64,000 nt of DNA from Curvularia clavata (taxonomy: Eukaryota), in the NCBI GenBank assembly GCA_023920165.1, contig CP089274.1, positions 1,054,001 to 1,118,000 of the forward strand. Direction: 5' to 3'. The translations under genes and the position numbers were made by a program. Of this stretch, positions 5,879 through 15,788 are shown piece after piece; position 1 is the first letter of the stretch, and every line of letters begins with the position of its first letter. Below the pieces are notes generated by a model. That model worked only from the letters and a program-made list of their open reading frames with translations, ran no database searches and was not told the origin of the DNA.

Positions 5879-7925
5879 CTACCCAAACACTTCAATCATG
5901 AATCGATACTCAATCTTCCTCCCCTCGTTGCGCGCCCTCGCACTCAACATGCTACATTGATCAGCAATCTGCTGGCCAATCACCGGCGGACCACAGAAAA
6001 AGACTCCAACCTTGATCTCATCATTCTTCCCACGTCCTTTCTCATCCAACCCCTCTGCCAGCACCTTGCTCATATCCTCATAGTGTCGCTCCATGATAGC
6101 GCGGATATCCGGGCGACCAAAGTGAGTCGGATTCACAAGACCCGTAATGGGCGACTGTGGATGCTCCGGCGTACGATGTTTTTCCAGCAGCCACCTGAAG
6201 ACATGCTGAGATATTTGCTTACGCTTTTGCGTCACGTACGTGTTAATGCGGATATCAAGATCAGGGGCTCGGGGAATCGTGTGAGAAACTTCGTTCAGGA
6301 GGTCGGAGAACCAGAGCAGGTTGTTCTTGTCACGTACCATCCAGTGGAAGTCGATCCGGCGGTGGTTGGTATAGGGTGATGATTGGCGTGAGGAGTCGTG
6401 CAAAGTGTCAGGTGAGTTGTCTCTGGACTTGACTCGCTCAAGCTCATGGTACTGGAGGTCGGTCAAAACTCCTGAGAAAGGTGTTACACCGATGCCAGCA
6501 CTGTGCAGTGTTAGCAATGTTTTCGTAGGCAAAGGATATAAATGCTTACCCAAAAACCATGCTATACTCAAAGTCGTAGAATCGCTGCGCAGGCGCACCG
6601 AATGGACCGTCTAATCCAATTTTGATGGCTTGCCGTCCTTCTTGCTTGGCGAGATCACGGAGCTGGTTTGTCCAGTCTCCATCTGCCTTAATGTGAACTT
6701 GCATGGTGTTCTTGATGCAAGTCGACACTGTGAATGGATGCCATTGGAAGCGAGACAGTTGCGGCACCTGTACGAAGACATATTGACCGGCTTTATAGTC
6801 CCAAGGGCGAGTTTTGGGAATGTTTGCTGTGATAACAACAGTCTCTTCGTCCAGCAACTCGAGATCAGCGATGATTGGGCGAAAACTTAGAATCAACCTC
6901 CAAACACGTTCGAAGAGAACCATGAGCGTAGGGAAAGCAAGCCAGTATCCAAACATCGGCCACTGCAAAAGGGCCGCAGTGCCGTGCGCCATCATGAAGC
7001 CAATAATGGGAAATATGAGAAGATGGCCCAGTTGAAAGATCTCATAGTTCCACTTTCGAACCTGAGGCATACTCAATAGTGCTAAGAGATAGAAAAGCCC
7101 GAGAGAGGTGAGGCCAGTCCATCCAGGCAGGGAACGCAGATAACTGGTGTAAGAGCGTGGTACAGCGTCTGGTCCAAGGGCATTCGCAACCGCATCCTGT
7201 CGTCCCGCTTTACTCCCAAAAACGAAAGAGCCACTGAGATGACCGATCGCATGCAAAGTCGCAAAGACTAGCGCCACGATGGAGATTTTGATGTGGAATG
7301 ACTGTGACAAGTCCCAGTTGATGAACCTCGAAATAAAGTAGAAGCGTCGCAGAAACGTTGAGAGCCATCTCGACATGGAGAGAATAAGGAAGAAGAAGGT
7401 TGGATACAGCACGCCCGCACATGTCTTCGACAGGACAACCCCCCAGCCAAATGCAGGTGTGTACTGGTCGTAGGTGAGATATTTTACAAACTGCCAGACT
7501 CCAAAGGCGATCATCATGAGGAGGACAAGCGCGAGGAACAAAACTTCTGGCCCTTTGACAGCCCAGTAGGCGCGGGCTCGTCGGTACAACGAGATATGCT
7601 TCAGGTAGTCGTCCTCGTCTTTCGCTTCTTTGCGATCATGCTCTAGCGACGGGATCTCCCAAGTCTTCACAGTCTTTGCGAAGTCATCGTGCTTGATGCG
7701 GTCCTCGCGCGTTCCGATTATCTGCCGGAGGAATTGATGTCGCGCTTCGTCGCCGCGAGATTGGTGGTGAAGGTTATGTGGCTGGGCTTTCGGAGCTATC
7801 TCCTTGTGCACTTGATCCAGTTTGCGTTCCAGTTCCCAGTAGCTGATATTGCCATCGTTGTCGTGGTCGAGATCGTCGATGAAGTGCTTGATTTCCTCGT
7901 CTGTAAGGCAGGTTTGCGAAGCCAT
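5879..7925 (-). CDS. noxC: EF-hand-containing NADPH oxidase (NoxC/RBOH-like)
   Basis: N-terminal EF-hand DLDHDNDGNISYWE. Ferric-reductase TM domain with heme His pairs (FHIKISIVALVFATLH; GHLLIFPIIGFMMAH). FAD motif QWHPFT; NADPH motifs DGPFGAP, GAGIGVTPF (across intron 6501-6549) and VGVFFCGP. Confidence 0.85.
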
Positions 7926-9068
7926 TGACTGGTGACGATAATTCAGAGGGCAATTAATGGACTTAAAGCTTTGACTTATCGTCCATCTTTAAGTTTTCCT
8001 CAACGACGTTGCATGTCTTGGTCGGCGCACGTAGGCCAAGACGTTCATGCTATCAAACGTGCTAACACTGCAAAGCGCCGCCAGTAAGATGGAAAGAAGC
8101 TAAGGTGGCCCAGAAGGACAAGACACCCAAGACGGAATCGGCTCTGGCGGGCGCAACTTGCACAGTTGGCGGAGCGGAATTCGATCCTGAGAGCAATCTC
8201 CGCCTGTTGCACCGCCACTCAGCGCTCAAGACCAAGACTTTTGCCCAGGTTGAGTGGGCTGTTTTCTCGGCATGCGCGCACGTTGAACAAATCAGTCTCG
8301 ACCATCCAGGGCACCAGCCACATGTTATCAGTGACGACTAGAGCAGGGAGGCCGGTAGTGCGGAATTAGAGTTTAGCTGGCATATTGGATTTTGGAGGTC
8401 ATCTCAAAGACTAGGTACTGTGGAATGTTTTTTCCACTTGAAGCACGTTTCGTATACGCGAACAGAGGGGTGACCAGGTCGGGGAAGACAACACCGATCA
8501 ACGGTATAGAATGTCATAACATGCATAATTTGCCATATCGTCCATTGTTGATACACAAGAACATAAAGTTGCTATGTTGTTCGAAAAGAGACACTATGGC
8601 TAGAGTGCAGCAAGCCGAGGAAGGCTAATGGCTGTCTTTGGACTTGGCACAAGCATGGTGGCATCATACTAGACGACGTCATCGATTTGCACATGGCCTT
8701 TGTCGCAACTTCCAAAGAATAATCTTAATCCTTCTCAAAATAGGTCTCTTTTTGAGATGCGCGGCGCTGCTTTGCCAGTGCATCCTTGCTTTGAGATCAG
8801 CCTACCGACGGAGAGGTCAGATCTTCCCGCCTTTGTCCAGGATCTCCCAATCGATGTTCAGAAGATGCGCCACGACGTCATTAATCCCGTGCTTCTTCAC
8901 GATGAATGAATCGCTCGGGGCGCGGAGATGCAAAAGTGCCAGAAATCGATGATGTCTGCACTTTGCGATCCATATTGGATACAGACAAGCGCCTTTCCGT
9001 AATGCGTTTTGTTCTCCTACCACTGACCGTTTACACCTGCACGACTTTTGACACTGAAAACTTTCATC

Positions 9069-10079
9069 ATGGCAGACGGCCAAATCACAACCGAAACCAA
9101 TCCGGGATCGTCTATACGACTTACCCATCGCCATGAACGCTCTTTTCTGATGACGATAGTCCAGTCGCTTGTGCGACTGATGCCCTCCAACAATGGCAAT
9201 ACCAAGGTAGAGCATGAAGATGGCTCTCTCAGACTGAACCCATCAAAATCAAAATTATCTGGATGCACTCTTCGCGAACGCACAGTTTGCGATATTTACA
9301 TATACGATATGCTACCTCCGAATTTATCAGAGAAAAACTCTAAGAAGCGGATATATTACTTTGCTGGAGGTAGTTGGCAGGAGCCTCCTTCACCACAGCA
9401 CTACAAGCTAGTCGCCAAGCTCGCCAAAGAGATGCCCGAAACAACCATATCCATTATATCGACACCGCTTGCGCCCAACAACCCTGCGCCGAGTTCATTT
9501 CCCATGTGCATGAAAACCTATCGCGCCCTCATGGCCGAGGCCGGCAAGGCCGGAGAAAGAGTCATCTTTGCAGGTGATTCATCTGGCGCAAATATCGCCT
9601 TGAGTCTCGTCCTTGAAGCCGTACGAGAAGACGGCGAACAAAAAAGCACGGAAACCACCCGGAGCTCGCATCCTGTTGCCATCATGGCTGTGTGTGCATC
9701 GACGGACCTCACCCGCAACAATCCGGACATCGAAAAGATCGCACCTAAAGATCCTCTCCTCACACCCCAGATGATCAAGAATACTGCAAAGGCATGGCAA
9801 GGCGACTGGGATCCCGCTGACCGCCGCATCTCTCCTATCAACGCCGATGTTACATTGCTGGCCAAGAATAATATCAAGGTTCATGGTATAACTGCGGGTT
9901 GCGATGTGTTAAGCCCTGACGGCATAATATTCCGTGAGAAATGTGCTCAAGCAGACGTCAAGGGCGAGTGGGTTCACTGGGAGAAGCAGATGCACTGCTT
10001 CGTTCTCACCGTGCCTTATGGTCTGGCCGAAGCGAAGAATGCCGTTGAGTGGATGATCGATGTGCTCAAGAAAGAATAG
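9069..10079 (+). CDS. Alpha/beta hydrolase, hormone-sensitive-lipase (Abhydrolase_3) family
   Basis: GDSSG nucleophile elbow, YYFAGGSW oxyanion region, CDVL (Asp) and QMHCF (His). Confidence 0.88.
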   Translation: MADGQITTETNPGSSIRLTHRHERSFLMTIVQSLVRLMPSNNGNTKVEHEDGSLRLNPSKSKLSGCTLRERTVCDIYIYDMLPPNLSEKNSKKRIYYFAGGSWQEPPSPQHYKLVAKLAKEMPETTISIISTPLAPNNPAPSSFPMCMKTYRALMAEAGKAGERVIFAGDSSGANIALSLVLEAVREDGEQKSTETTRSSHPVAIMAVCASTDLTRNNPDIEKIAPKDPLLTPQMIKNTAKAWQGDWDPADRRISPINADVTLLAKNNIKVHGITAGCDVLSPDGIIFREKCAQADVKGEWVHWEKQMHCFVLTVPYGLAEAKNAVEWMIDVLKKE

Positions 10080-10313
10080 ATATGTGTTCATTTTGCATGT
10101 AATTGTTAAGATACCCTTGCAATTGTAAACATAACGCTCTTATAACGAGGTATTTTCACATGTTCCACCCACCCAAACGCCATTTAATGCAAAGCCTGCT
10201 TATCCTAGATTGAAAATATACTCAAAACTCCGCCCGTGTTTGGAGGCCGTGTCTCCTTTCGCTTGATGAAAAAAATGATTTTGTTGAGTCAAAGCACAGG
10301 TTCGGTCGCTGGC

Positions 10314-11937
10314 CTAGGGGTTCTGCCCAGTTTGCCCAGATTTGCGCTTTCTCATGAGCTTGAACCGCCACCTTTGATGTTTGCTGGTAGACGGCACTCC
10401 TATTGCGTTGCTAGTATGCAGTTGCGGAGCTGCGGACGGACTCGCAGTATTTGTCGTACTGGGTTGGCTCCCCTGGGCAAGGCTATTTGCAGCTTGCTTT
10501 TCTGCCCATTGCTTACGGCGTTCTTTGGCTCTCGCAATCGCTGCCTCCTTTTCATCACCAGTCAGACTATTGATATGCAAATCTTCCTCGGTTCGTCTGG
10601 CATCCTCGCGGTCGTCCTCGAAATACTGGTCGGCTCCTTCAGTGTAGGTTTTGGGATGATAATTCTCATCGCGGTCGATGGCGAAGAAATAATCGTCGTC
10701 ATCACTGTCGTCGTAGTAGCCGATATCATCATTTTCATCTTCTTCGATCAAGCAGTCGGCGTACTCAATGAAAGCTTTTGTCTCTCTCAGCAAAAAGTCT
10801 TCGCTGAGAATGACATCCGCTGGTGCGTTCTTGAGAATATAAAAATCAAGTGGATAGCGCTTCCCAGCACCGAACTGCCACGAAACATTGTACGTTTTGC
10901 CGGAAGTAAACGCAGTGGACCCGTCGGCAAATCGAAGCTTGATACACGTCTTTTTTGTGCTCACAATCGAAAGGCCCAGCGTTCGGGCATAGTCTTCATC
11001 CATGATCAAAACCTTGGACGCCGAATCGGCAAGTGCAGTCTTGGTTTCCCCATTGAGTAGTCCGGCAAACATCGGAGGCGACGCACCCAGAAACATAACT
11101 TGGTGTGTATTTAACGTTCTTGTGAATCGTTTCACCACTCGCTTGGCGAAATGTAATGCGTTGGAAAAGGTCTTGGTGGCTTTCAAGAACGATTTGCCGA
11201 GTATGACGTTCTTGATACACCCGGGAAGAATATGGAATTTCAACGGGTATGGGGTCTGTTCACCTCGAAAGCTGAAGGAAACCTCAGAAATACCAGTAGT
11301 CATGACCTTTTGGCCACTCGCGATAGTTATGAGCGTTCTTGCGGTCGGGTCGATCTTGAACTTGCACCGTTTCGCATAATCTTCATTCAAAAAATTGTAC
11401 TTGGCTCCAGTGTCCCCTGTGGCGTCGACAGGGTGTTGAGAATCAAGAAGGCCGGGGATAACATGATCTGAGCTGAGCTTTCTGATATCGGGGTTGGGCA
11501 TGAAGTAATCTTTCAGGACCATATATGTTGCTTTCTGTACAGGTGATACCAACTTCGACTTACCCAACCCTCCTATTCCACTCAGCTGAACAACTGTGTT
11601 TTTCTGGCTGCCCCACATCCAAGATCTTAGACGATCTAAGTGTACGTATCTATTGCTATTTGATGTGAGCGTAAATCCCTGCCTAATGAAACTCATGACC
11701 TTAGGTTCCTACATACTCTAGTTTGGAGATTACTTCGCGAATGGTGTCTCTTTTCAGGCCAGAGCCCAGAACATTGGTTTCGTCGGCGGGTGCAGGCTGC
11801 ACTTTTTCATAAAAGGATTCCAAAAATGCATTATCGTTTTCCAAGCCGACGACAGAGTGTTCTCCATCGTTATAGTTGGCAGTACGAATAGGGCTTGTCC
11901 AATCAGGCCACTCAGCTGAAAGCTCAGTATGGTCCAT
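10314..11937 (-). CDS. Protein with two tandem retropepsin-like aspartic protease domains (about 520 aa)
   Basis: Exon 11937-11717 and intron 11716-11656 (GTATGT...GCTCAC...AATAG) join in frame to ORF 10314..11696. Domain 1: DATGDTGAKYNFL...IASGQKVMTTG...VILGKSFL. Domain 2: ALADSASKVLIM...FADGSTAFTSG...VILSEDFL. Acidic and helical C-terminal tail. Confidence 0.8.
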
Positions 11938-12331
11938 ATCGCCAGGACTATGACGTCAGTGGCATAGCGAGCGTCAATCGTCAAGGCCCTCTAGGGTCCT
12001 TCGCAAGAAAAACTTTAAATGATGGAGAAGTCGAGATACAAAGAGAGAATGAGACGGGGCATAAAGGCTTTGGGGAGTCCGCATATTTGATTAAAGCTGG
12101 ATGGCATTTAATGCGTCAACTAGGCAATCAGGCAATCGGGTAAAAGTGAGGCAAATGGCCACGTCAAGCCGGTGAGATGGATCGGGTATGGCTTTGGCTG
12201 AGCACAAGGCGTAGCGGAACTGTCCCTGATGTGGCTTGATTACGAACGCATGCAGTCCGCGCTAGGCTGAGAGATAGGCAACATATTCCAAAAGCTTCAT
12301 ATTGAAAAGACACTTCAGACACAGAAATGTA

Positions 12332-13332
12332 ATGCCACAAAATATCGATTTAGAGCCCGGAGACCTACGCAACCGCGACGGATACCCCACACTAGCTAGA
12401 TGGATAGCACGTGATCCTGATGGGGAAACGTTCGTCTTTCGCAAGTTTGATCAGCTAGCGGCGAGATATGCGCTCCATTTACAGGCCCGAATAACATCTC
12501 TGGAAGCCGAAATCGAGGGGCAAGATAGAATTGCCAGAAACCATGCAGAATACGAAGTGCGACAGGGATCGAAAAGCTGGGAGATGCTTAGTGAACGTGC
12601 CAAAGCAGTGGACAGCTTTGAGGAAAAACGAGTCAATAGCATCGAAGAAATGGGGGAGCTTGTTCAGAAGTACTGTAAGTGACCATTTGACGTTTATTTG
12701 ATCCACCTTCGAGCTGATTCAAAACAGATGATTTTTTAAATGCGCGGTCGCAGATTGCGGAAAAGCGTCAGCCTTGCGATCGTTCCATGTCCGCTCTGCG
12801 CGAATTTGTCAATGGGACAGCAGTTAAGAATGATGAAGGAGTTCCTGTTTCTCTCATCAAGGGACGTGCCCAGGGATATCTAGATCATAAATCTGACCTA
12901 ATCACGCTTGCTCGCCCGATCGAGGAGGATTATCTATCCCGTTTTCTTCAGGATCATTGGATATTCAGGAGCCGTAACACATCTGAAATATACGACCGTA
13001 CCACAGTATACAAAAACTTACATATTACCCGCACTGTCGCCGGCATCGACCTTCTTCTCGCTGCGATTCTTTTAATAGGGGCGATTGCAAACTTGTACTT
13101 GGTGCCAAATGCAAAAGCTAAGCTAGGCCTAGTAGCCATGTATACTATTCTATTTGCATCAAGCGTTGCTCTTTGTACAAATGCAAGGCGAACGGAGATT
13201 TTTGCTGCGACTGCAGCATATGCGGCAGTTCTAGTTGTCTTTGTTAGCGGCGATCTAGGCGGTACACAAAGCCAACAGTGTTTGATACAACTTGAAGGGG
13301 CGATTTGGAAGACAGTAGCATGCCCTGGCTAG
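12332..13332 (+). CDS. DUF6594-like protein with three C-terminal TM helices
   Basis: GYPTLARWIARDPDGETFVFRKFDQLAARYALHLQARITSLE N-terminal signature. Intron 12675-12727 (GTAAGT...GCTGAT...ACAG) joins in frame. C-terminal IFAATAAYAAVLVVFVS signature. Confidence 0.85.
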
Positions 13333-15788
13333 ATTTGAATTATTATTTCTTGACCCAGGCTATTCACTTGACTTCATTCTGGACCAGTTCTGCCTCCAGG
13401 CCAATTTTCCTGTTGCAAACTTTGCACTACGCGTTTTCAGGAATTTCTCAATCGCAATCGTGATCTGTTCATGGATTTAGTCAAGATGAACTATTTTGAG
13501 CTTTGTATTCGAAAGCTGTGGAATATTTTTCACCTTGGCGCTCCAATAAGGTATCAAGTTGAAGCTACCAGTCATAGCTAGAGCCAATGCCATGTTTTGT
13601 TAAGCCATCAGTGGACTGCCCAAGGGCTATGACATTGCAACCAAGGGCCTCTTTCAATCTCGTCTGTCTGTTGCTCAGAGTATGCCCAAGAAACCAGGCA
13701 TATATTGATGATCGCGATTGAATAGTAACACGCCTAACTAACGTCCCAAATCTCATGCGTGAGCTCCAACTCCCACGCACGTAATCGCAGTATCAAAGAA
13801 TAGGGGAAGAGATGCTGATGAACATATTTTCAGATGCTAGGGTATAAATAGCACTTTCCCCTAACAACGCAGTGCGTAGGGAACGTTGATAGGAGTGAGC
13901 AATCAGCATGTAAATGCAGTCAAATTCTGATTTTGTGTTTTGCATAAAACAATCTTCTTCGAGGAAGAATTGCGGGGTCGGATTTGTTGGGCCTTGATCT
14001 GGATGGGCTGGTGGCTGCTTCGTGGCTACCTACGCATAACTTTGTCAGAACTGCTACCTGGCCAACGCTGAAAGCTCGATAGTACAAGCGTCACTTGATC
14101 GCCCCGTCCACAATCAATGAAAATCCTCGTTGAGAAGCTGACGTAGTCTTGCACGCTGAGTTTAGCCCTTCTGAAAAGAGACTGGTTTTCATAATGTAGT
14201 GGGGTGTACACGTACTTTGGTCAGGAACCCTGCCCGTTTCGTCGTATGTGATGAGGCTGTGGATGTGATAACCTGCAGTAGTCGGTGCAGCCCCAACCCA
14301 GCCCCTGCGCACTACTGGGTACCCTGGACCCCATGCTTTCACTTGAAGGGGGCTCAGTCAGGCACATCTTGCCCATTGGCTGTATGTACTTGCTCTTCAA
14401 TTTCTTCCCCGACAACGACAAAATACTGGACCGACTAGGCCCCCACATGCAAGTCTCGATTTCATAGCGCCAATCTTGTTTTATTTACCAGCGATACACA
14501 TAGAACCGAGACTCGTGAGATGTCGTACAAAAGCTGAATAGTGTGAGGGCAAAGATGTGTCGGCTGGAGTCTTGTATATTTCTTTTTTCCGACATGATAA
14601 CGCTAATAAGAAGCGGAAACGGCTACTGCAAAAGGCATGATAGTGAGGCGATGGCGAGCCAGTTGGACAGATGTCATGGCACTATGATGCGTAGGATCGG
14701 AAGCTCTAGGCATCGCTTTCCAACCAATCTGCTTGCGTAGCTTGGTAGCGAACTTGACGGCACGTGGAGCTGATGGCTGGTGGCAATCCAGGTCCCTGGC
14801 TCCCGTATAGGGTAGGTACGGAGCGTGGTGGTGCACAGATCAGCAGCTGCGTCGCGTGCTTCTGACAGCCCCTACCCGCTGTTCGCAGGATCATCAAACT
14901 TCAGCTACTAACAGGTGGTGTGGGGAAGCCTTTTTGCATCAGCTTCCAGGCACGCAAAGCCTAGGTCATCGCTCGGTAATCGTATCACAAGTTTCGTTCT
15001 TTAGGTCAAGTGTCACAGAATTTCTCCTACATATAAGCATCGAAGATTACATTTGGAGGGAGAAAACAGGGAAGAACGATGCTACTACCGCCGACAACCC
15101 TATCAGTACAGAACATCATGCAATTATTTCCAGTTGTGTAAGATTAATTGTGCAATTCCTGCCCTTCATGGTGGCCACCCTGCGCCGATCGGATCGTATC
15201 CTAGGCTAGGCCTGTACATAGCGGAGAGCTAACATAAATTGAGTTTGCGACGTCCCGGGTTTCGCGAACATCGTAACTCGGGCAAACCACTCATCGTGCT
15301 GTTTAGCAGAGATATCCCCACACTTCACTTTGCTTCTCCGAGGATACCATCCACAGGCTCGCAAAACAAACCCAGACCCTGAAGGTAAGACGACAAAGAC
15401 ACGAATCATATCTATCAGGGGAAGAGCTGCAAAGCAAGGATGCTACATGGGATAGCAGATCGAGTCGTCATTCCAGCTTTGTGCGGCAATACGATAGCAT
15501 AGATCGATAGTGCGGCGCAGGGGTGGAGAGAATGGATGGCCGCTCGCTTGCGGGTAGCCTTCCGGCGCCACGAGGGGCAGTTCCGTCCCGTCGATGAAGG
15601 AGACTAGCGAGACTGTCATCCGCTCGCAAACTTTATGGTGGGCAGGTCTGGAGGGCCTGAGGTTGCCACACGAATTGATCTCCGCTCATCCGTCTGTGTG
15701 GGCAGTTTTCTATATTATGTAGCGCCGCTAGGGTTCTCTAGTAGCCGACATTGTCCTCTACACCACGATATTTACCATCTGCGACATC

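What the first reader, a model, noticed from the sequence alone, without database searches (positions are those of the whole stretch)
10314..13332. Head-to-head pair of a tandem-retropepsin protease and a DUF6594-like 3-TM protein: candidate protease-activated membrane effector locus
Seen in sequence: two accessory genes start about 395 bp apart (ATGs at 11937 and 12332) and are transcribed divergently. One is a cytosolic double retropepsin with no signal peptide. The other has a helical N-terminal region followed by three C-terminal TM helices and no catalytic motif. Established knowledge: fungal gasdermins (e.g. Podospora het-Q) are often encoded next to the protease that cleaves them, and bacterial defence systems pair proteases with TM effectors. 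Inference: this could be an analogous but uncharacterised module in which an aspartic protease processes a DUF6594 membrane effector, for regulated cell death or allorecognition. One instance of adjacency is weak evidence by itself.
Basis: partly seen in the sequence, partly recalled or inferred. Interest (0 to 1): 0.72.

Follow-up and report, generated by a model that had tools for sequence, protein, structure and literature searches.

The report
Fungal protease-membrane pair with swappable sensor
Two neighbouring fungal genes, a retrovirus-type protease and a membrane protein of unknown function, travel together across many moulds, and the front end of the protease keeps being replaced by pieces copied from unrelated host genes, which suggests an undescribed bait-and-switch defence system.

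Summary
Observation confirmed: both genes are intact and spliced in transcript-like contigs. The linkage is real. 8 of 10 unselected metagenome loci of the protease have a DUF6594 gene head-to-head; the other 2 end too early to tell. Flanks are unrelated. The genome's only other tandem retropepsin also faces a DUF6594 gene, and two more DUF6594 paralogues face caspase-like genes. The protease models as a single-chain retropepsin pseudo-dimer; DUF6594 matches no solved fold. Best reading: a decoy-bearing protease controlling a membrane effector in non-self defence (0.45); cleavage and toxicity are unshown, and this copy has a unique DSA motif. The scan found DUF6594-protease pairs before on other DNA; no paper holds DUF6594.

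The parts
10314..11937 (-). Tandem-retropepsin gene, 520 aa, two exons (11937-11717, 11655-10314)
   Evidence: splice seen in run X22
11656..11716 (-). 61-nt GT-AG intron of the protease gene
   Evidence: candidate; skipped exactly in an X22 contig
11475..11937 (-). Variable N-terminal extension (residues 1-134), unrelated to that of any of 130 other extensions compared
   Evidence: singleton in all-against-all BLAST
11514..11642 (-). P-loop piece resembling the start of an NB-ARC/NACHT domain inside the extension (tentative captured fragment); this stretch is replaced in frame in close relatives
   Evidence: Pfam NB-ARC E 0.0031, under the curated cut-off; no donor found in G000; 11526-11724 replaced by 117 other letters in runs X1, X5, X9
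11157..11474 (-). Retropepsin lobe 1, catalytic motif DTG (Asp155 at 11414-11412)
10752..11075 (-). Retropepsin lobe 2, motif DSA instead of the usual D(S/T)G (Asp284 at 11027-11025)
10467..10751 (-). Acidic run followed by a predicted helical hairpin (residues 416-470)
   Evidence: model helices 282-303 and 306-336; acidic run in 53 of 58 full-length close homologues
10317..10390 (-). Basic/aromatic C-terminal tail, possible membrane or nuclear targeting (inference)
   Evidence: 6 or more K/R in the last 25 residues in 43 of 58 full-length close homologues
11938..12331 (.). Shared divergent intergenic region (probable bidirectional promoter; inference)
   Evidence: protease-side contigs end at 12050 in X22 and X5, DUF6594-side contigs begin at 12301-12346; contigs cannot fix starts
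12332..13332 (+). DUF6594 gene, 315 aa, two exons (12332-12674, 12728-13332)
   Evidence: splice seen in X22, X1, X5
12675..12727 (+). 53-nt GT-AG intron of the DUF6594 gene
12449..12759 (+). Predicted cytosolic helical hairpin/coiled coil (residues 40-125); the more variable half between alleles
   Evidence: pLDDT 88-98; 19 of 25 differences between P. nodorum alleles lie in residues 1-122
13033..13251 (+). Three predicted transmembrane helices (residues 217-289)
13279..13323 (+). C-terminal beta hairpin closed by Cys299 and Cys313 (probable disulfide on the non-cytosolic side; inference)
   Evidence: both Cys nearly invariant in 66 aligned homologues; strands 298-303, 307-312

Best explanation
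A two-gene fungal surveillance module. SHOWN: the genes are intact, spliced, linked across many ascomycetes in changing flanks; the protease keeps both aspartates; its N-terminus is repeatedly replaced in frame, often by fragments of conserved host proteins. MODELLED: the two lobes fold as one single-chain retropepsin active site, so no dimerisation switch is needed; DUF6594 is a 3-TM protein with a long cytosolic helical hairpin. INFERRED: the N-terminal piece restrains the protease and acts as a bait (integrated decoy or tripwire); when a foreign effector or non-self allele binds, modifies or cuts it, the protease is freed and cuts the cytosolic half of DUF6594, whose membrane part then oligomerises or signals to arrest or kill the cell. 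Other DUF6594 clades use caspase-like or single-lobe retropepsin partners for the same step. This particular copy may be weakened (DSA motif, long branch).
For: Linkage: 8 of 10 metagenome loci, the 2 misses have under 700 bp upstream; no shared flanking genes except between the near-identical L107/L109; consecutive protein accessions in 8 of 9 assemblies or species checked, one gene between in the ninth (pairs pre-selected by equal contig length). In G000, 4 of 10 DUF6594 genes face a Pfam-supported protease gene (2 tandem retropepsin, 2 caspase-like with His-Gly and Cys motifs) and 2 more face weakly retropepsin-like ORFs. Both Asp in 186 of 187 ungapped homologues. Model closest to tethered HIV-1 protease dimers (Z 13.6, 186 residues, rmsd 3.0). 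N-termini: 131 extensions fall into 71 clusters; 31 match an intact Est1-like gene and 13 a P-type ATPase gene of G000, focused on one stretch of each donor (25 of 31; 10 of 11); scattered over the core tree with sister cores bearing different pieces; the Est1 piece of the window's sister protein is 86% identical to the intact G000 gene while the cores are 65% identical, so capture recurs; single open frames confirm fusions in DNA. In-frame swap in ~96% identical relatives. Two linked haplotypes in P. nodorum, 97 and 58 contigs, proteases 66% identical with unrelated N-termini. Precedent: 80% of fungal gasdermin genes lie by a protease gene and clades switch protease type (PMC8851545, passages).
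Against: No cleavage, toxicity or phenotype data. DUF6594 matches no pore-forming fold. Captured pieces are truncated, chimeric or internally deleted, as expected also for a tolerant junk linker; Est1 fragments also lie in G000 away from any such protease. 63 of 194 homologues have under 60 residues before the core (many are partial gene calls). No NLR-type sensor architecture among 94 proteins scanned. The partner at L102 has lost residues 81-288, including the TM helices. 4 of 10 DUF6594 genes in G000 show no protease neighbour. The window copy has the unique DSA motif and an end branch of 0.71 against 0.19 for its sister. Strain counts are not population frequencies, and DUF6594 N-terminal divergence may be hitch-hiking, as it lies next to the divergent block. 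An earlier agent saw no sign of a death or self-recognition role for this pair type (e1-7826667).
Confidence: 0.45

Rival explanations
1. Regulated proteolysis without death: DUF6594 is a membrane anchor, adaptor or latent signal that the protease processes (DDI2-NRF1-like logic, recalled); the N-terminal pieces are tolerated passengers.
For: Closest solved sequence relatives are Ddi1 proteases (E 7e-6); both genes appear in spliced contigs of several runs, so the pair is not silent; no pore-former fold.
Against: Signalling pairs are usually conserved single-copy genes; here there are about 10 paralogues, protease class switching, dimorphic haplotypes and hypervariable N-termini. No DNA-binding domain in P0077.
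Confidence: 0.2
2. Poison-antidote or allorecognition lock: DUF6594 is constitutively harmful and its linked protease destroys or holds it (or the reverse); mismatched alleles kill on cell fusion or in the ascus. The N-terminal pieces set stability or specificity rather than sense pathogens.
For: Tight linkage, movement as a unit between loci, co-segregating divergent haplotypes, two proteases carry a piece of DUF6594 itself (P0020, P0230), a protease survives beside a broken partner at L102.
Against: 4 of 10 DUF6594 genes in G000 have no protease neighbour seen; recurrent capture of the same donor stretches across orders is not needed by this model.
Confidence: 0.2
3. The pair is a functional unit, but the captured fragments are neutral products of an insertion hotspot (possibly cDNA-templated repair) between the two genes, kept only because the frame stays open.
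For: Fragments of random length, chimeras of two donors, partial duplications of the protease start; the ATPase piece at L101 runs across the G000 donor's intron position without a gap; stray Est1 pieces elsewhere in G000.
Against: Same two donors and same stretches recur in Dothideomycetes and Sordariomycetes; some pieces have very short branches (0.04-0.07). BLAST detection favours conserved stretches, so this is not decisive.
Confidence: 0.12
4. No functional link: adjacency is inherited synteny or co-mobilisation.
For: Most close homologues are Pleosporales, so cases are related by descent.
Against: Flanks are not shared; a 28-37% identical paralogous pair in the same genome keeps the arrangement; unrelated protease folds take the same position.
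Confidence: 0.03

Closest known systems
Fungal gasdermin / HET-Q2-like protease clusters (Podospora het-Q; PMC8851545, passages read)
   Same: Two-gene clusters of a membrane-acting protein and a protease; several per genome; clades switch protease class; a minority of effector genes stand alone.
   Different: DUF6594 is an integral 3-TM helical protein with no gasdermin fold match; the protease is aspartic (retropepsin), not S8 or CHAT; cleavage and death are untested.
Retropepsins: Ddi1/DDI2, retroviral and Ty3/gypsy proteases, tethered HIV-1 protease dimers
   Same: Fold and paired Asp motifs.
   Different: Natural single-chain tandem; lobe-1 motif often DYC/DYG/DFC; no UBL/UBA, no Gag-Pol context; variable N-terminus, acidic run, helical hairpin and basic tail.
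Integrated-decoy NLRs of plants and putative ones of Sordariales (PMC12258605, passages read)
   Same: Copies of host-protein domains fused to a candidate immune protein; head-to-head pairs; repeated independent integration.
   Different: No NB domain or repeats; the carrier is a protease; pieces are mostly partial domains; that paper's main text has no occurrence of 'protease', 'aspartyl' or 'EST1'.
Fungal het/vic allorecognition loci (general knowledge; PMC12881547, three passages read)
   Same: Divergent linked haplotypes within one species.
   Different: No incompatibility phenotype known; the review text has no occurrence of 'aspart', 'retropepsin' or 'DUF'.

Membership tests
DUF6594 (PF20237) | Pfam score over the curated cut-off | tested here: met
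   106.8 and 53.8 bits against cut-off 30
Retropepsin-like aspartic proteases (clan AA) | Retropepsin fold in both lobes | tested here: met
   Pfam two stretches; model pLDDT 87, Z 13.6 to covalent HIV-1 protease dimer over residues 1-236
Retropepsin-like aspartic proteases (clan AA) | Two D-(T/S)-G motifs | tested here: inconclusive
   Both Asp present; motif 1 DTG, motif 2 DSA (1 of 194 homologues). Effect on activity unknown
Retropepsin-like aspartic proteases (clan AA) | Proteolytic activity | not testable with these tools
   needs an assay
LTR retrotransposon protease | Part of a Gag-Pol frame with RT/integrase, multi-copy, LTRs | tested here: not met
   Spliced stand-alone gene, 2 family members in G000 against long multi-copy Pol frames; no long repeats in 9900-15000
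Ddi1/DDI2 | Single RVP domain with UBL/UBA | tested here: not met
   Two lobes, no UBL/UBA hit; a separate stronger single-domain hit lies at C1:2288868 (Ddi1 label is my inference)
Gasdermin / het-Q system | Effector with gasdermin fold | tested here: inconclusive
   No gasdermin among listed matches; model is helical with 3 TM; an unlisted family is not formally excluded, but no Pfam gasdermin hit either
Gasdermin / het-Q system | Neighbouring S8 or CHAT protease | tested here: not met
   Neighbour is an aspartic protease
Gasdermin / het-Q system | Effector genes mostly clustered with protease genes | tested here: met
   4 firm plus 2 tentative of 10 in G000
Gasdermin / het-Q system | Cleavage releases a cytotoxic fragment | not testable with these tools
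   needs co-expression
Integrated-decoy immune receptor | Recurrent in-frame integration of host-protein copies | tested here: met
Integrated-decoy immune receptor | NLR scaffold (NB domain plus repeats) | tested here: not met
   only a 43-residue P-loop-like piece here; none among 94 homologues scanned
Integrated-decoy immune receptor | Integrated piece is targeted by a foreign effector and needed for response | not testable with these tools
   needs experiments
het/vic allorecognition locus | Divergent alleles at intermediate frequency | tested here: inconclusive
   97 and 58 contigs in P. nodorum, but a database count, not a population sample; trans-species polymorphism not tested

The most novel reading that the evidence does not exclude
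Fungi have a non-NLR immune receptor class: a self-sufficient single-chain retropepsin whose N-terminal slot repeatedly captures pieces of guarded host proteins (Est1-like RNA-decay factor, calcium ATPase, kinase, chaperone, NLR P-loop) as decoys, wired to DUF6594 as a new membrane death effector that other clades fire with caspase-like proteases. The catalogue of captured pieces would then list the host targets of fungal antagonists.
Probability: 0.3. Interest if true: 0.92.

Novelty: new variant of a known kind. Interest (0 to 1): 0.74.

Why it matters
DUF6594 is a multi-copy ascomycete family that no paper in the searched library names. A link to proteases gives it a first testable function, and a two-gene yeast assay can settle it. 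If the decoy reading holds, it is the first aspartic-protease-based and non-NLR integrated-decoy system in fungi, adds a cell-death effector unrelated to gasdermin or HeLo domains, and the captured fragments would point to what mycoviruses, bacteria or mycoparasites attack in fungal cells, a long-standing gap. Even under the neutral reading, the locus is a clear natural hotspot of in-frame gene-fragment capture.

Tried and rejected
Complex prediction of the protease (337 aa) with DUF6594 (residues 10-315) gave no answer, score 0.00, alignments not used; neither support nor evidence against. Fold searches with the DUF6594 model found only generic helical bundles (best Foldseek E 1.3; best Z 9.4); hairpin matches to ESCRT-III-like proteins (Z about 8) are within background and were not pursued; domains were not folded separately. 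Atlas search without PF20237 gave no usable hit; for residues 1-134 of the protease all hits were under 0.9. No solved relative of DUF6594 by sequence. Search for longer, fused DUF6594 forms returned 1 protein with an apparently spurious tail and is weak evidence. No relative of DUF6594 in viral contigs nor of the protease in prokaryotic genomes with one pattern. No donor in G000 for the P-loop piece; pairwise scores to two G000 NACHT frames were weak (E 9e-4, 0.25). Retrotransposon origin rejected. The Est1 piece beside a NACHT-ankyrin gene (L123) lies after its stop codon and is itself cut short, so I did not count it as an integrated domain. Single-lobe retropepsin-like neighbours scored only E 0.021, 0.013 and 0.0016 at low probability (control 0.65), with no Pfam hit: tentative. 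The careful tree did not finish; one search is the quick tree. Literature: 'DUF6594' 0 papers; four gene or family tags 0 papers; some searches gave listings with nothing on this pair by title or abstract start. Supplements were not read; datasets of PMC8851545 and PMC12258605 could list such architectures, and bioRxiv supplements are closed. Whether relatives share the DSA motif was not visible (table cut).
Full report
Observation. The window is fungal (G000, 32.4 Mb, 8 contigs). The minus-strand gene starts at 11937, has one intron (11716-11656) and ends at 10314: 520 aa, identical to P0001. It has two retropepsin stretches and no hydrophobic segment. The plus-strand gene starts at 12332, has one intron (12675-12727) and ends at 13332: 315 aa, DUF6594, three hydrophobic helices at 217-289. 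Contigs of run X22 skip both introns exactly and hold the two genes on separate contigs; X1 and X5 skip the DUF6594 intron (run types are guesses or unrecorded).

Linkage in this genome. One search gives 19 matches that group into 10 DUF6594 genes. The protease has one other relative in G000, at C2:3171062 (32% identity), head-to-head with the DUF6594 gene at C2:3168911-3169740 (35-37% identical to the window's). I scanned 148 of 168 open frames within 6 kb of the nine other genes. Two more face caspase-like genes (PF00656 E 3e-4 and 9e-3; His-Gly and Cys motifs visible), one of them a kinase-ankyrin-caspase gene. Two face frames that align end to end with one retropepsin lobe but weakly (E 0.021, 0.013), and one of these has a further DTG-bearing frame downstream (E 0.0016). 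Four show no protease neighbour. So 4 firm and 2 tentative of 10. The three strongest PF00656 loci are not near a DUF6594 gene.

Linkage elsewhere. A metagenome scan with the protease alignment, blind to neighbours, gave 10 loci; 8 have DUF6594 on the opposite strand upstream, and L100 and L108 have under 700 bp of upstream contig. L107 and L109 are near-identical, L105's partner is cut by the contig end, and L102's has lost residues 81-288. Flanking frames are shared by no two loci except L107/L109, nor with the window. Of 76 proteases, 17 share a contig length with one of the 120 listed (of 713) DUF6594 hits, 16 of 34 on contigs of 20 kb or more. For pairs picked that way, plus P. nodorum, protein accessions or locus tags are consecutive in two Paraphoma assemblies (one with two proteases), Ophiobolus, Phaeosphaeria sp., Periconia, Neocucurbitaria, P. 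nodorum and the window's own record, and two apart in Westerdykella. Distances within 24 pairs correlate (rho 0.49, p 0.0008; 0.33, p 0.012 without the distant paralogue), which shared ancestry alone could give.

The proteins. The protease model (pLDDT 87) best matches tethered or covalent HIV-1 protease dimers across both lobes (Foldseek E 1e-8; Z 13.6): a natural single-chain pseudo-dimer, followed by an acidic run, a helical hairpin and a basic tail. Both aspartates are kept in 186 of 187 ungapped homologues; lobe 2 is D(S/T)G in 178 of 194, and the window's DSA is unique. The window's core also sits on a long branch (0.71), so this copy may be attenuated even though its frame and splicing are intact. 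The DUF6594 model (pLDDT 78, pTM 0.56) has a long helical hairpin (40-125), three TM helices and a two-cysteine C-terminal hairpin; no solved fold stands out. With no signal peptide and three TM helices, residues 1-210 should face the cytosol, where the protease is (inference).

The variable N-terminus. Of 194 aligned homologues, 131 have 60 or more residues before the core; these fall into 71 BLAST clusters, 61 of them singletons. Against seven donor loci from G000, 31 of 131 match an intact Est1-domain gene and 13 a P-type cation ATPase gene (the names Ebs1 and Pmc1 are recalled). 25 of the 31 cover one stretch of the donor, 10 of 11 one stretch of the ATPase's first exon. Pfam on 94 of the 131 adds M16 peptidase, adenosine deaminase, DnaJ, DUF6590 and, twice, DUF6594 itself. 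These are not only gene-calling errors: L103, L104 and L105 hold donor piece and protease in one stop-free frame (75%, 49% and 64% identity to the G000 donors). On the core tree the pieces are scattered, and near-identical cores carry different ones (P0003 Est1, P0004 ATPase, P0013 M16). Est1 fusions occur in Tothia, Meristemomyces, Fusarium and Colletotrichum. The piece in P0002, the window's sister, is 86% identical to the intact G000 gene, against 65% for the cores, so capture is recurrent rather than one old event. The window's own extension holds a P-loop piece like the start of NB-ARC (E 0.0031, under cut-off). In runs X1, X5 and X9 (about 96% alike) 199 bases here (61 intron, 138 coding) are replaced by 117 others, which keeps the frame; a second X9 contig fits only up to 11472, the core boundary.

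Polymorphism. In P. nodorum two protease types, on 97 and 58 contigs, are 66% identical with unrelated N-termini but nearly identical tails; the adjacent DUF6594 alleles split 97 and 58 as well (one of the 97, P0208, typed by accession only) and differ mainly in residues 1-122 (19 of 25 sites). In X5 and X22 the first DUF6594 exon also differs three to four times more than the second (17 of 372 against 9 of 599; 9 of 329 against 4 of 602). This is what allorecognition and immune loci look like (general knowledge), but database counts are not allele frequencies and linkage to the divergent block could explain the gradient.

Mechanism. Shown: a linked, expressed pair; conserved catalytic residues; turnover of the N-terminal slot. 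Inferred: the slot restrains the protease and serves as bait; release leads to cleavage of the cytosolic half of DUF6594 and a membrane-level response (0.45). Rivals: non-lethal regulated proteolysis (0.2), poison-antidote or allelic lock (0.2), functional pair with neutral capture (0.12), no link (0.03). Against the best reading: no assay, no pore fold, ragged and chimeric fragments, stray Est1 pieces elsewhere in G000, a broken partner at L102, four unpaired paralogues.

Comparison. It works like fungal gasdermin/HET-Q2 clusters (PMC8851545, passages: 80% of 1,884 gasdermin genes near an S8 or CHAT protease) but is not a member: other effector, other protease. It resembles integrated-decoy NLRs (PMC12258605, passages) without being an NLR. 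A 2025 review of fungal cell death has no occurrence of 'aspart', 'retropepsin' or 'DUF' (PMC12881547, term counts and three passages). Other papers were seen as search listings only. No paper holds 'DUF6594' or 'PF20237'. This scan has noted DUF6594-protease pairs on other genomes (11 findings, 8 shown); a word search for the fragment capture found none.

Verdict. A real, conserved, unpublished protease-membrane protein module; new variant of a known kind; interest 0.74. The fragment-capturing N-terminus and the dimorphic haplotypes are the strongest pointers so far to a defence or non-self role.

Noticed in passing
L123:6247-6411 (-), G000 C3: A 57-codon Est1-like fragment, cut by a stop, starts about 20 bases after the stop codon of a NACHT-ankyrin NLR gene; another diverged Est1-like copy lies at L124:4488-5498. 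Est1 pieces are being copied around this genome.
   Followed up: partly
L028:2599-9300 (-), G000 C6: Multi-exon kinase-ankyrin-caspase-DUF7580 gene head-to-head with a DUF6594 gene: a receptor-like protease partner.
   Followed up: partly
L026:8035-8577 (-) and L027:1316-2071 (-), G000 C3: One DUF6594 gene is flanked on both sides by single-lobe retropepsin-like frames without Pfam hits; the downstream one keeps DTG.
   Followed up: partly
L032:2608-4834 (-), G000 C7: SesA/HeLo-like-NACHT NLR gene and a DDE transposase about 5 kb downstream of a DUF6594 gene.
   Followed up: no
L037:3-1991 (-), G000 C5: A DUF6594 paralogue with over 500 residues of low-complexity N-terminus and no protease neighbour; possibly the conserved core member of the family.
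   Followed up: no
L104:1726-2829 and 6408-7747: The pair at this metagenome locus has a HET-domain gene downstream and a HET-associated-looking frame (by eye) on the other side.
   Followed up: no
L101:5183-5760: A partial duplicate of the protease start lies just upstream of the full gene, and the captured ATPase piece runs across the G000 donor's intron position without a gap, hinting at RNA-templated capture.
   Followed up: partly
window 8800-10314: Spliced contigs of the protease in X22 and X5 run on through the convergent alpha/beta-hydrolase gene (9027-10079), suggesting overlapping 3' ends; X22 lacks 10 bases at 10319, at the protease's C-terminal end.
   Followed up: no
window 5879-7988 (-): EF-hand ferric-reductase/NADPH-oxidase-like gene (Pfam) 2.3 kb from the pair; not shared by other loci.
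   Followed up: no
G000: At least two LTR-retrotransposon families with many identical-scoring long open Pol frames (1504 and 1340 codons), suggesting recent activity with little RIP.
   Followed up: no
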